DNA from: a virus
UHGV virus genome: UHGV-0141986
DNA length: 11,633 nucleotides
Strand: one strand, 5' to 3'
In this document: one piece after another, positions 1,817-9,617 of the stretch
Position numbering within the stretch: position 1 is the first letter of the stretch
Layout of the letters: every line of letters starts with the position of its first letter
Made by a program: the position numbers and the translations under genes
Notes under the pieces: model-generated
Databases searched by the model: none
What the model was told of the DNA's origin: nothing
What the model saw: the letters and a program-made list of their open reading frames with translations, nothing else

Positions 1817-2065
1817 TTCTTCCATTCCGGGACGTTACACTGTTCAGGCACCTTATAAAGCGGGTGCCGGGATTGGCGTCCTGGAAATGTTATCGGCGAT
1901 ATATGACGCGCCAGCGTTTTTTTTATCGTCTGCGTCTGCGCACACCCAAATTATGGTGGGCTGGACGGGGGCACCGAAAGGTGCGCCGGTTTCCGATAAC
2001 GCCGGTTACGCCAACCCCGTTCAGTTCACCACCAGCGAAATTCACTGTTATCGGAGGCTGCCATC

Positions 2066-8568: not shown

Positions 8569-8867
8569 AAAATTCCTTAATACTGATAACTTGGCGCACT
8601 ATACACACGTTCCTGAAGAAAGCTATAGTTTTTTGATGGGGTTGAAGATGGCTGGATGTCTAAAATAAACATTGCTTCATATGTTCAACTATGCGTTAAT
8701 GATTGCGTCGGTTTGAAGAACAGACGATATACGAAGTAGTTTACTAAAGCAGTTCTCATTTCAGGTGTTATTCACTTATTCCTTCTTTGAGTCTCTCCAA
8801 TTAAGTACGAAGTCGTTTCTGTTATACAAGCCATTTATGCCGAAAGGCTCAAGTTAAGGAATGTAGA
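8569..8867. promoter_or_regulatory. Divergent cspF/cspB promoter region and long cspB 5' UTR
   Basis: 299-bp AT-rich intergenic region between divergent csp genes. Long structured 5' UTRs are a known property of cold-shock mRNAs. TAAGGA SD 7 nt before cspB ATG. Individual elements not resolved. Confidence 0.35.
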
Positions 8868-9083
8868 ATGTCAAATAAAATGACTGGTTTAGTAAAATGG
8901 TTTAACGCTGATAAAGGTTTTGGCTTTATTTCTCCTGTTGATGGTAGTAAAGATGTGTTTGTGCATTTTTCTGCGATTCAGAATGATAATTATCGAACCT
9001 TATTTGAAGGTCAAAAGGTTACCTTCTCTGTAGAGAGTGGTGCTAAAGGTCCTGCAGCAGCAAATGTCATAATTACTGATTAA
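8868..9083 (+). CDS. cspB: Cold-shock protein CspB-like (CspA family)
   Basis: [71 protein letters not shown] with RNP1 (KGFGFI) and RNP2 (VFVHF) motifs. Confidence 0.9.
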
Positions 9084-9364
9084 AATTCATAGTTTGTCTG
9101 TATACGATAACGAAGAAGGCTGATGCCTGAGTGGAGATACAGACAGAGTGGTGAATATTGGATCTCTTTAATAAATAGTAAGGAGGTCCAATACATGAAA
9201 CAATGGCCAGCATATTTGGCAATAACTTAATCAGGAAAAGTATGCTAACCATTGTGGTGAAGTGCAGGTTTGCTGCATGAATAGTTTTACAGCAGAAGCT
9301 AACTGCTGGCATAGCAAAACAAAGTGCGTAAGTGGATGACTCCCACAAAAAGTACCACAATATT

Positions 9365-9391
9365 AAACCCGCTCAGGCGGGTTTTTTATTA
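9365..9391 (+). terminator. Rho-independent terminator
   Basis: AAACCCGC (9365-9372), loop TCAG, GCGGGTTT (9377-9384), then TTTTATT. Partly symmetric, so it may also serve the minus-strand small gene at 9447-9617. Confidence 0.6.
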
Positions 9392-9446
9392 TCTGCTTTA
9401 AATATGTTATTAAAATATAAAAAATACTTGTTACGAATAAAATCAA

Positions 9447-9617
9447 TCAAGCTACAGCTTTAAGATTTGTCTGGAATACTTTGTTGCAATGAGGGCAGAT
9501 CAAAAGGGCACCTTTTTGTATTCTTGAAAAACTGTGTTCTGACTCTTGGGTGCAGTTTGGGCAGGAACATTTAACGAGATAATTACGGCGTGATTTTGAG
9601 TCTTTACGTTCTGACAT
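9447..9617 (-). CDS. Small zinc-ribbon protein (56 aa, two CxxC pairs); possibly YnfQ/YmcF-like cold-shock-associated small protein
   Basis: MSERKDSKSRRNYLVKCSCPNCTQESEHSFSRIQKGALLICPHCNKVFQTNLKAVA. AGGAA SD 7 nt upstream of ATG at 9617-9615. Track start 9668 adds an implausible extension. Family assignment is from memory. Confidence 0.55.
   Translation of the reverse strand: MSERKDSKSRRNYLVKCSCPNCTQESEHSFSRIQKGALLICPHCNKVFQTNLKAVA

What the first reader, a model, noticed from the sequence alone, without database searches (positions are those of the whole stretch)
9084..9391. Structured RNA region with an 11-codon mini-ORF behind a perfect Shine-Dalgarno, ending at an intrinsic terminator
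Right after the cspB stop there is a 9-bp perfect inverted repeat (TGTCTGTAT 9095-9103 and ATACAGACA 9137-9145). It is followed by AGGAGGT (9181-9187) 7 nt before ATG 9195 encoding MKQWPAYLAIT-stop (9195-9230), further hairpins (for example CAGCAG-N7-CTGCTG at 9290-9308), and the terminator at 9365-9391. A consensus-strength SD in front of an 11-codon ORF is unusual. Candidates are a regulatory leader peptide, a micro-protein, an sRNA, or the remnant of a lost gene start.
Basis: seen in the sequence. Interest (0 to 1): 0.45.

Follow-up and report, generated by a model that had tools for sequence, protein, structure and literature searches.

The report
Conserved structured RNA tail of cspB
The stretch after the prophage cold-shock gene cspB is a conserved, multi-hairpin RNA tail that ends in a four-way junction and belongs to no catalogued RNA family, while the eye-catching 11-codon mini-gene in it is most likely an accident of one hairpin.

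Summary
The emphasis on the mini-ORF is probably misplaced.

The window is a Qin-like lambdoid prophage of E. coli. Positions 9084-9391 are the unannotated spacer between cspB and the convergent ynfU.

Homologues from about six clades of Enterobacteriaceae prophages, phage-plasmids and plasmids show a conserved RNA on the cspB strand:
- hairpin H1
- a variable hairpin H2
- hairpin H3
- a 111-nt four-way junction (9251-9361)
- a terminator in the Escherichia-type, phage-plasmid, L011 and L157/L158 clades; the Enterobacter/Kosakonia-type clade has a U-rich stretch instead

Compensatory base changes support H1, H3 and all four junction helices. Rfam has no matching family.

The "perfect" Shine-Dalgarno is the 3' arm of H2 (-18.7 kcal/mol). 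SD and ATG occur only in the Escherichia Qin-type lineage. All six ORF changes seen there are non-synonymous or nonsense. Published K-12 Term-seq puts the dominant RNA 3' end on the ATG itself.

Best reading: this is a processed, structured cspB 3'UTR. H1 and H2 cap the message, and the conserved junction is a regulatory RNA domain of unknown partner. It is a new RNA family of a known kind and of moderate interest.

The parts
8868..9083 (+). cspB coding sequence (context). The structured RNA is its 3' untranslated region.
   Evidence: Pfam CSD E=1e-31. Annotated cspB in CFT073 and K-12. Rfam cspA thermoregulator covers 8707-9146.
9093..9147 (+). H1, a conserved hairpin. The inner stem is 9117-9120/9125-9128. 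The conserved internal-loop sequences are ACGAUAACGAAGA and CCUGAGUGGAG.
   Evidence: Fold -19.0 kcal/mol, z -5.5. In alignment A2 of 20 sequences, 8 of 10 outer-stem pairs show compensatory changes, and the outer stem is 89% paired; over all 14 pairs 84.9% are paired against 24-40% when partners are slid.
9156..9193 (+). H2, a 15-bp hairpin specific to the Escherichia Qin-type lineage. Its 3' arm contains the 'Shine-Dalgarno' AAGGAGGT (9180-9187). Other clades carry unrelated hairpins or sequence at this position.
   Evidence: Fold -18.7 kcal/mol, z -5.4. Inverted repeat I1. Natural stem variants keep pairing (G.U to A-U, C-G to U.G) while weakening the SD, except AAGGCGG (L048), which puts a C.U mismatch in the stem; the loop is hypervariable.
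9195..9230 (+). The 11-codon mini-ORF (MKQWPAYLAIT). It overlaps the 5' arm of H3 and is judged incidental.
   Evidence: Variants are MKQWLAYLAKS..AKS..AKP..LVIT and MKQ-stop: six changes, none synonymous. It is absent outside the Qin-type lineage.
9196..9198 (+). Position equivalent to the dominant RNA 3' end mapped in E. coli K-12 (1641226 and 1641224, minus strand), 3-5 nt after the H2 stem and inside the ATG.
   Evidence: Term-seq table of Adams et al. 2021 (PMC7815308, Supplementary file 1). Average counts were 604,404, 1,233,565 and 2,464,295 in three conditions. Coordinates were mapped through.
9201..9254 (+). H3, a conserved hairpin with arms 9201-9217 and 9238-9254. Its basal 4 bp (9201-9204 with 9251-9254) compete with the outer part of P1.
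   Evidence: Fold -18.1 kcal/mol, z -4.0. In alignment A5 of 22 sequences, 13 pairs are 94.3% paired against 25-43% when slid, and 5 pairs show compensatory changes.
9251..9361 (+). Conserved four-way junction. P1 is 9251-9259/9353-9361, P2 is 9262-9267/9273-9278, P3 is 9290-9295/9303-9308 (loop AAGCUAA), and P4 is 9332-9335/9343-9346. The linker AAAGUGCGUAAG lies at 9321-9332.
   Evidence: RNAalifold and pair counts give 98.2% (28 sequences) and 97.6% (44 sequences) of cells paired, against 22-63% when slid. Eight to nine of 24 pairs show compensatory changes, five of them in P1. Covariance model R1 scores the window 135 bits, E about 1e-30.
9365..9391 (+). Intrinsic terminator (8-bp stem, 5 G-C pairs, 6 U), bidirectional, preceded by an A/U-rich spacer.
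   Evidence: Terminator scan and inverted repeat I5. The Cyrano/Klebsiella, L011 and L157/158 clades have a terminator in the same place. K-12 Term-seq shows the ynfU-sense 3' end at 1641060 but no curated cspB-sense 3' end here.
9447..9617 (-). ynfU, a convergent zinc-ribbon small-protein gene (context). It is often but not always part of the cassette cspF | cspB-RNA | ynfU.
   Evidence: Pfam YnfU E=6e-31. Annotation. Cassette survey.

Best explanation
Positions 9084-9391 are the long, structured 3' untranslated region of the prophage cold-shock gene cspB. I read it as a conserved RNA element, not a coding or leader-peptide unit.

Proposed mechanism:
1. Transcription from the cspB promoter runs through about 300 nt to the terminator at 9365-9391 (inferred).
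2. The RNA folds into H1, H2, H3 and a four-way junction closed by P1 (the folds are shown by covariation).
3. The transcript is cut or trimmed in the short single-stranded stretch just after H2 (a 3' end there is shown in K-12).
4. The cspB message is left capped by the H1 and H2 hairpins, which I infer block 3'-to-5' exonucleases and so set its lifetime.
5. The downstream piece, H3 plus junction plus terminator (about 195 nt), carries the most conserved sequence: the P3 loop GAAGCUAAC, the linker AAAGUGCGUAAG and the junction strands. I infer it is a recognition domain for a host protein or RNA.
6. The four bases 9251-9254 can pair either with the base of H3 or with the 3' end of P1. This could open or close the junction (inferred).

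I think the domain most likely controls cspB mRNA processing or decay in cis, and may also act in trans after release.

The SD/ATG/11-codon ORF is a lineage-specific by-product of hairpins H2 and H3.
For: **Location**
- The region lies between cspB and ynfU in a Qin-like prophage and is unannotated in 1640 E. coli records.

**Distribution**
- Homologues lie about 110-175 nt downstream of a cspB-like gene, on the same strand, in Escherichia, Enterobacter, Kosakonia, Kluyvera, Phytobacter, Raoultella, Superficieibacter, Pseudescherichia, and in Klebsiella and Citrobacter phage-plasmids.

**Structure**
- Compensatory changes support every helix.
- Pairing is better on the cspB strand than on the opposite strand: 98.2 vs 94.3% (core), 84.9 vs 76.7% (H1), 94.3 vs 78.8% (H3).

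**Not coding**
- Variable sites are spread evenly over codon positions (8/18, 9/18, 8/17).
- 1-nt indels and a 49-nt repeat insertion are tolerated.
- ORFs over the core differ between clades.

**SD and mini-ORF**
- The SD is buried in H2.
- H2 stem variants preserve pairing but not the SD.
- SD and ATG are missing in other clades and in L026 and L075.

**Transcript ends**
- The K-12 Term-seq 3' end falls on the ATG, 3-5 nt past H2.

**Alternative pairing**
- There is three-way covariation between the H3 base, the shared tetranucleotide and the P1 3' end: CAAT/ATTG/CAAT, CAAC/GTTG/CAAC, TATC/GATG/C(G/A)TC.

**Transcription unit**
- No sigma-70-like promoter was found on the plus strand between cspB and the element.
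Against: - No function has been measured.
- In K-12 at 37 C there is no curated cspB-sense 3' end at the terminator, so RNA carrying the junction is at least about 25-100 times rarer than the H2-ended species under those conditions. That table's minus-strand threshold is high.
- The essQ-cspB spacer is used as a neutral landing pad in MG1655, so disrupting it has no obvious laboratory cost. The exact insertion point is unknown.
- The family is narrow (Enterobacteriaceae mobile elements, about six clades), so independent covariation events are few.
- Most homologues were fetched with patterns that required the two 'invariant' motifs. Their invariance is only partly tested, by BLAST-found homologues and by L157/158, where the P3 loop differs.
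- The Enterobacter/Kosakonia clade lacks a canonical terminator right after P1.
- Translation of the mini-ORF from read-through transcripts cannot be excluded.
Confidence: 0.6

Rival explanations
1. The mini-ORF is really translated and acts as a regulatory leader or 'uORF-like' peptide or as a micro-protein. Ribosomes on 9195-9230 would unwind H3 and free 9251-9254 to close P1.
For: - The SD is consensus-strength with 7-nt spacing to the ATG.
- ATG and ORF length are kept in 96 of 97 Qin-type copies; one copy (L042) has a premature stop.
- The ORF overlaps the H3 5' arm, so translation would plausibly affect the H3/P1 competition.
- Csp proteins melt RNA hairpins (general knowledge), which could expose the SD in the cold.
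Against: - The SD sits in a -18.7 kcal/mol hairpin.
- The dominant K-12 RNA ends inside the ATG.
- SD and ATG are absent from all other clades and from L026 and L075, while the RNA structure is kept.
- The six ORF changes include one nonsense and no synonymous change, and there are SD-weakening variants.
- The SD+ATG pattern is not rarer than chance.
Confidence: 0.1
2. The junction plus terminator is mainly a trans-acting small RNA derived from the 3'UTR. It would be released by RNase E cleavage after H2 and use the conserved single-stranded AAAGUGCGUAAG or the P3 loop as a seed on host mRNAs, probably with Hfq or ProQ.
For: - An intrinsic terminator with a 6-U tail is preceded by an A/U-rich spacer in four clades.
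- A processing-type 3' end lies just upstream, between H2 and H3.
- The core persists in L108, where cspB is gone, and in L075, where the H2/H3 region is replaced by unrelated sequence and cspB stops only ~88 nt before the core.
- Single-stranded motifs are conserved.
- Mobile-element sRNAs that act on host genes are well known (general knowledge).
Against: - No curated 3' end at the terminator in K-12 at 37 C.
- No own promoter was found.
- A covarying four-way junction is atypical for Hfq sRNAs.
- No complementary site within the window.
- The Enterobacter clade has no terminator hairpin.
- No target or protein partner could be tested.
Confidence: 0.2
3. The region is only a strong transcription stop or insulator. 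It would keep cold-induced cspB transcription, or ynfU transcription from the other side, out of the lysis genes. The hairpins would have no further role.
For: - The terminator is bidirectional and used in vivo on the ynfU strand.
- In lambdoid prophages the cassette sits just upstream of holin and lysozyme genes.
Against: - A single hairpin would do this job.
- The junction, its loops and linker are conserved with covariation in phage-plasmids and plasmids where no lysis genes follow.
- The Enterobacter-type copies keep the junction without the terminator hairpin.
Confidence: 0.07
4. The region is decayed coding sequence. It could be the start of a lost gene, or a real gene on the minus strand (the 95-aa ORF 9073-9360, which some phage records annotate as hypothetical).
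For: - Three phage records annotate a hypothetical protein under the region.
- PHB10 has a 41-aa plus-strand ORF in frame with the mini-ORF.
- The paralogues cspG and cspI are followed by small ORFs.
Against: - No Pfam or PHROG family for the 95-aa ORF.
- ORFs differ in frame, start and length between clades.
- No codon periodicity.
- No similarity to YmcF, YnfQ or YmcE.
- G.U pairs favour a plus-strand RNA.
Confidence: 0.03

Closest known systems
3'UTR-derived regulatory RNAs of enterobacteria (for example CpxQ from cpxP, SroC from gltI; from my own knowledge)
   Same: - Lies downstream of a stress-induced ORF on the same strand.
- Shares the mRNA's intrinsic terminator with a U tail.
- Has an A/U-rich stretch before the terminator.
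- K-12 shows a processing-type RNA end upstream.
   Different: - Much larger and more structured, with a covarying four-way junction plus H3.
- No stable released RNA has been documented; no terminator 3' end is listed at 37 C.
- No Hfq or target data.
- One clade lacks the terminator hairpin.
mRNA 3'-end stabiliser hairpins and protein-protected 3'UTRs (REP-type stabilisers; ProQ protection of the cspE 3' end in Salmonella; from my own knowledge)
   Same: The dominant K-12 3' end lies 3-5 nt after a very stable hairpin (H2), as expected for exonuclease trimming back to a barrier. The gene is also a csp-family message.
   Different: H2 is lineage-specific, whereas H1, H3 and the junction are the conserved parts. 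Protection was not measured, and no protein partner is known.
Rfam RF01766, cspA thermoregulator
   Same: The same mRNA matches it at 8707-9146, 156.7 bits. It is an RNA structure that controls a cold-shock message.
   Different: That family is the 5'UTR, the coding region and a short terminator. Its last hairpin is merely forced onto H1. Nothing in it corresponds to H2, H3 or the junction, and cspA, cspG and cspI regions give no hit with the junction model.
Riboswitch-type aptamers (a multi-helix junction closed by P1 next to a terminator)
   Same: The junction is closed by a P1 helix, has conserved junction and loop nucleotides, and is followed within 3-20 nt by a terminator. One P1 strand has an alternative partner.
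   Different: It lies in a 3'UTR, not a leader. No antiterminator pairing with the terminator was found, the spacer to the terminator varies, there is no Rfam match, and no ligand is suggested by the gene context.
tRNA-like cloverleaf elements
   Same: The order of helices is similar: a closing stem, a first arm, a 6-bp arm with a 7-nt loop, a long linker and a last arm with a 7-nt loop.
   Different: ARAGORN finds no tRNA and there is no tRNA hit in Rfam at E<=10. The spacers between arms are far too long, and there is no T-loop or D-loop consensus.

Membership tests
Any Rfam 15 family (core junction, H1-H3) | Score at or above the family's gathering threshold | tested here: not met
   The gathering scan gives only cspA (8707-9146), C4 and isrK elsewhere. 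The E<=10 scan of 9050-9450 gives only sub-threshold hits to the terminator region, the best being 26 bits against a 51-bit cut-off.
tRNA / tmRNA | Cloverleaf recognised by ARAGORN | tested here: not met
   No genes in the window.
Translated small ORF / leader peptide | SD and start codon conserved in homologous loci | tested here: not met
   Present only in the Qin-type Escherichia lineage. Absent in Cyrano, Klebsiella, Enterobacter, Kosakonia, Kluyvera, L011 and L157/158, and in Escherichia L026 and L075.
Translated small ORF / leader peptide | Purifying selection on the peptide, or at least an accessible ribosome-binding site | tested here: not met
   Six changes, none synonymous, one nonsense. 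The SD is paired in a -18.7 kcal/mol stem. The K-12 RNA 3' end lies within the ATG.
Translated small ORF / leader peptide | Ribosome occupancy at the start codon | tested here: inconclusive
   The supplements of the ribosome-profiling papers that were reachable held no coordinates for this region, not even for the known neighbour ynfU, so the look-ups are uninformative.
3'UTR-derived, Hfq-type small RNA | Intrinsic terminator with a U tail, preceded by an A/U-rich stretch | tested here: met
   Window 9359-9391. The same holds in the Cyrano, Klebsiella, L011 and L157/158 clades. It does not hold in the Enterobacter clade.
3'UTR-derived, Hfq-type small RNA | A discrete stable RNA ending at that terminator | tested here: not met
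   The K-12 Term-seq tables for three 37 C conditions list no cspB-sense 3' end at about 1641031-35. Cold-shock data were not available.
3'UTR-derived, Hfq-type small RNA | Binding to Hfq or ProQ, and base-pairing targets | not testable with these tools
   RIL-seq supplements are not held. No complementary site within the window. Unrestricted duplex prediction with the cspB 5'UTR and with RyhB was not better than shuffles.
Conserved structured RNA (general criterion) | Helices maintained by compensatory changes, more than in controls, on one strand | tested here: met
   Core 97.6-98.2% paired with 8-9 covarying pairs. H1 has 8 of 10 outer-stem pairs covarying. H3 has 5 of 13. Slid controls give 22-63%.
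Riboswitch | Aptamer in a leader, with mutually exclusive terminator and antiterminator | tested here: not met
   The location is a 3'UTR. By inspection, nothing pairs with the terminator arm, and the spacer between P1 and the terminator varies from 3 to 20 nt.

The most novel reading that the evidence does not exclude
The H3/four-way-junction unit is a previously undescribed RNA switch that travels with mobile cspB genes. Bases 9251-9254 would toggle between H3 and P1. The position of that toggle would be set by temperature or by the RNA-melting activity of CspB itself. It would decide whether the junction is closed and recognised by a host factor such as an RNase, ProQ or Hfq. That would give the cold-shock message a feedback sensor in its 3'UTR, complementing the known 5'UTR thermosensor.
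Probability: 0.2. Interest if true: 0.7.

Novelty: new member of a known kind. Interest (0 to 1): 0.45.

Why it matters
cspB is a classic cold-shock gene of E. coli K-12, and its control has been studied almost entirely through the 5'UTR. These results point to a roughly 300-nt 3'UTR with three covariation-supported domains. It is shared by prophages, phage-plasmids and plasmids of many Enterobacteriaceae, it is unannotated and it is absent from Rfam.

If the junction is functional, it adds a 3'-end layer to cold-shock mRNA control, or a mobile-element regulatory RNA. It can be tested directly in K-12.

The result also has practical value. It shows that a textbook-looking SD+ATG can be a by-product of a hairpin, so gene callers and small-ORF screens should not annotate this mini-ORF, or the 95-aa antisense ORF, without translation data. 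It also warns that the 'neutral' essQ-cspB landing-pad locus contains a conserved RNA.

Tried and rejected
- **Rfam.** Gathering and E<=10 scans gave no family for the region.
- **tRNA.** ARAGORN found none.
- **Promoter.** The scan found no plus-strand sigma-70-like site between cspB and the element.
- **Coding tests.** ORFs on both strands are inconsistent between clades, variation shows no codon periodicity, and the 95-aa antisense ORF has no Pfam or PHROG family.
- **Homology to paralogue neighbours.** Comparison with the genes after cspG and cspI (YmcF, YnfQ, YmcE) and with their DNA gave only noise.
- **Junction model elsewhere.** Searching the K-12 cspA, cspG/cspH and cspI regions found nothing.
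- **RNA-RNA pairing.** Unrestricted duplex prediction of the 3'UTR with the cspB 5'UTR and with RyhB was not better than shuffles, and this is a crude test.
- **Local targets.** A search for sites complementary or identical to the conserved linker and P3 loop inside the window found none beyond chance.
- **Neighbouring genes in other contexts.** Pfam on these gave only YnfU and a DUF.
- **Wider homologue hunts.**
  - One-motif patterns added a fifth clade (L157/158).
  - They also returned random hits (L156, L159, L175), which were discarded.
  - The metagenome scan added no new clade.
- **Literature.**
  - No paper in the library discusses a cspB 3'UTR element.
  - One coordinate search was useless.
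  - Ribosome-profiling and RIL-seq supplements were not held or were uninformative.
Full report
**1. Where we are**

The window is a Qin-like lambdoid prophage of E. coli. Positions 9084-9391 are 100% identical to CFT073, S88, APEC O1 and O145:H28 genomes and 95.5% identical to the K-12 Qin prophage. They occur in 1639 of 5426 complete E. coli genomes and never carry an annotation. In CFT073 and K-12 the order is Q antiterminator, cspF (minus), cspB (plus), this spacer, ynfU (minus), then holin essQ, lysozyme and Rz. The finding is therefore the cspB-ynfU intergenic region, read on the cspB strand.

**2. The observation**

- the 9-bp perfect inverted repeat 9095-9103/9137-9145
- AGGAGGT at 9181-9187
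- ATG at 9195 with an 11-codon ORF ending at TAA 9228-9230
- CAGCAG-N7-CTGCTG at 9290-9308
- an intrinsic terminator at 9365-9391

The region as a whole folds far better than shuffled sequence: -104.7 against -72.1 +/- 4.5 kcal/mol, z = -7.2. The SD-plus-ATG pattern on its own is not statistically remarkable. There are two matches in the window against 0.54 expected, and 24 of 200 shuffles reach two.

Three further inverted repeats matter more than those listed: 9156-9173/9176-9193 (H2), 9200-9217/9238-9255 (H3) and the long-range pair 9251-9258/9354-9361 (P1).

**3. Relatives**

A sensitive BLAST found about 79% matches to 9249-9391 in the phage-plasmid Cyrano and in phage PHB10. In both cases the match lies downstream of a csp gene, which is unannotated in Cyrano.

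Pattern scans then collected homologues from several sources:
- species genomes: Escherichia, Enterobacter, Kosakonia, Kluyvera, Phytobacter, Raoultella, Superficieibacter, Pseudescherichia
- viral contigs
- metagenomes

BLAST without any motif requirement added Klebsiella and Citrobacter SSU5-like phage-plasmids and a Klebsiella aerogenes conjugative plasmid.

In nearly all loci where the upstream flank was available, a cspB-like gene ends about 110-175 nt upstream on the same strand. cspF lies divergently upstream in most, and ynfU lies convergently downstream in many but not all. Two Escherichia variants break the pattern: L108 has lost cspB and L075 has lost the H2/mini-ORF stretch, yet both keep the junction. 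A covariance model of the junction finds nothing near K-12 cspA, cspG/cspH or cspI.

**4. The RNA structure**

The core (window 9251-9361) is a four-way junction:
- P1: 9251-9259/9353-9361
- P2: 9262-9267/9273-9278
- P3: 9290-9295/9303-9308
- P4: 9332-9335/9343-9346

RNAalifold predicts it from 28 distinct sequences. In that set 98.2% of pair cells are standard pairs, against 22-63% when the 3' partners are slid by 1-3 columns, and 8 of 24 pairs show changes on both sides, four of them in P1. With 44 distinct sequences aligned by the covariance model the figures are 97.6% and 9 of 24.

H1 has 8 of 10 outer-stem pairs with compensatory changes, plus conserved internal-loop sequences. H3 has 13 pairs, 94.3% paired, 5 with compensatory changes.

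Pairing is consistently better on the cspB strand than on its complement because of G.U pairs (98.2 vs 94.3%, 84.9 vs 76.7%, 94.3 vs 78.8%). The structure therefore belongs to an RNA made in the cspB direction.

A terminator follows the junction in the Escherichia, Cyrano/Klebsiella, L011 and L157/158 clades. In the Enterobacter/Kosakonia clade a U-rich stretch follows P1 directly.

Rfam has no family for any of this. Its cspA model covers 8707-9146 and only forces its last hairpin onto H1. ARAGORN finds no tRNA.

**5. A possible toggle**

The four bases 9251-9254 (ATTG) are the last bases of the H3 3' arm and the first bases of the P1 5' arm. They can pair with 9201-9204 (CAAT) or with 9358-9361 (CAAT). 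Across clades all three segments change together:
- CAAT/ATTG/CAAT in Escherichia
- CAAC/GTTG/CAAC in the Klebsiella plasmids
- TATC/GATG/C(G or A)TC in the Kosakonia type
- CATC/GATG/CTTC in Kluyvera (pairs 16:72 and 17:71, pairs 7:119 and 8:118)

This suggests that both pairings are used, either in succession during folding or as a switch. That is an inference from few independent lineages.

**6. The mini-ORF**

The SD is the 3' arm of H2, a 15-bp hairpin of -18.7 kcal/mol (z = -5.4).

Among 97 Qin-type copies, most stem variants keep pairing. The SD change G to A turns a G.U into an A-U, and two C to T changes in the 5' arm give G.U. One variant, AAGGCGG (L048), instead puts a C.U mismatch in the stem. 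The H2 loop is hypervariable, and the SD is weakened in several variants.

The ORF differs between variants by P/L, I/K, T/S, S/P, A/V and one TGG to TGA. That is six changes, none synonymous. The P to L change of K-12 restores a base pair in H3.

Outside this lineage there is no SD or ATG at the homologous place, and other clades have unrelated hairpins where H2 sits.

Variation across the core shows no three-base periodicity (8/18, 9/18 and 8/17 variable sites at codon positions 1, 2 and 3). One-base indels and a 49-nt tandem insertion in Raoultella are tolerated, and the ORFs that happen to cross the core differ in frame and ends between clades. The 95-aa antisense ORF matches no protein family. 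The region has no similarity to the small genes that follow cspG and cspI.

**7. Experimental data from the literature**

The Term-seq tables of Adams et al. 2021 (PMC7815308, Supplementary file 1) list, for K-12 MG1655, an 'orphan' minus-strand 3' end at three conditions:
- 1641226 (LB, OD 0.4; average count 604,404)
- 1641224 (LB, OD 2.0; 1,233,565)
- 1641224 (M63; 2,464,295)

The table prints 50 nt upstream, the end nucleotide and 10 nt downstream. The ends therefore fall on the T of the mini-ORF's ATG, or 2 nt further, which is 3-5 nt after the H2 stem (coordinates). This corresponds to window 9196-9198.

Minus-strand counts in that table run about 27 times higher than plus-strand ones. 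The fair comparison is therefore with other minus-strand ends: rpsT terminator 304,673, dapD 242,146, and the attenuated cspB 5'UTR end 56,964.

No cspB-sense 3' end is listed at the terminator. The hairpin is recorded only as the ynfU-sense end at 1641060. So at 37 C the abundant species stops at H2 and lacks an intact start codon for the mini-ORF, and RNA that includes the junction is much rarer. An end a few bases past a stable hairpin with no U-run is what exonucleolytic trimming back to a barrier leaves; that reading is my inference.

The essQ-cspB spacer has been used as a neutral landing pad in MG1655. No paper in the searchable library discusses a cspB 3'UTR element. The ribosome-profiling and RIL-seq supplements I could reach were absent or uninformative.

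**8. Interpretation**

Shown:
- a conserved, strand-specific, multi-domain RNA structure linked to mobile cspB genes
- an SD buried in a lineage-specific hairpin
- a dominant RNA end at that hairpin in K-12

Inferred:
- The element is co-transcribed with cspB, since no promoter was found.
- The transcript is cut or trimmed after H2.
- H1 and H2 protect the message from 3' exonucleases.
- The junction with its conserved loop (GAAGCUAAC) and linker (AAAGUGCGUAAG) is a recognition domain for a host factor.
- The H3/P1 competition modulates that recognition.

My order of preference is a cis role in cspB mRNA processing or decay first and a released trans-acting RNA second. The two are not exclusive.

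Caveats:
- The family is narrow.
- Most homologues were fetched with the two motifs as bait, so their invariance is only partly tested. It does hold in BLAST-found homologues, while the P3 loop differs in L157/158.
- No expression data exist for the cold.

**9. Verdict**

The mini-ORF reading is unlikely. The real feature is a conserved structured 3'UTR RNA with a four-way junction. It is absent from Rfam and from genome annotation, present in E. coli K-12 itself, and of unknown partner. I class it as a new family of a known kind (structured 3'UTR or 3'UTR-derived regulatory RNA) and of moderate interest.

Noticed in passing
window 1848-1924 and 1949-2036 (+): Rfam hits above threshold to isrK (61.7 bits) and to C4 antisense RNA (82.8 bits), side by side in the early region of the prophage.
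   Followed up: no
window 8707-9146 (+): The cspB 5'UTR, coding region and start of the 3'UTR match the Rfam cspA thermoregulator (156.7 bits). The model's terminal hairpin is stretched over H1 with a 33-nt insertion, so the family's 3' boundary does not describe this gene.
   Followed up: partly
L018 4462-4630 (Raoultella lignicola): Seven tandem copies of AAGCCTG (49 nt) are inserted between P2 and P3 of the junction. The covariance model still scores 84 bits, so this junction strand tolerates a large insertion.
   Followed up: partly
window 9365-9391; K-12 1641033-1641060: The terminator is bidirectional. In K-12 Term-seq it is recorded as the 3' end of the convergent ynfU transcript (1641060, plus strand), not of the cspB-sense RNA.
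   Followed up: partly
L002 (K-12 Qin) and L232 (K-12 cspH-cspG region): There are three paralogous csp cassettes. cspG and cspI are followed 10 nt later by a co-directional zinc-ribbon ORF (ymcF, ynfQ). cspB is followed by the structured RNA and then by a convergent zinc-ribbon ORF (ynfU). No sequence similarity was detected between the two kinds of downstream region.
   Followed up: partly
window 9148-9155 and 9254-9261: The direct repeat GTGGTGAA lets 9148-9153 substitute for the P1 5' arm in the minimum-energy fold of the whole UTR. K-12 has GTAGTGAA at the first copy, so the alternative is probably not conserved.
   Followed up: partly
L003 2131-2346 (phage Cyrano, OV696614.1): A complete cspB-like gene (84% identical protein) is not annotated in the deposited phage record. 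The RNA element lies between it and the end of the convergent dnaE.
   Followed up: partly
window 9117-9136 within H1: The conserved internal-loop strands (..CGAAGA / GAGUGGAG; in most clades ..CGAUGA / GAGUAGA) flank the inner stem with GA/AG steps. This resembles a sheared-G.A or bulged-G type internal loop, a common protein-binding motif. That is by inspection only.
   Followed up: no
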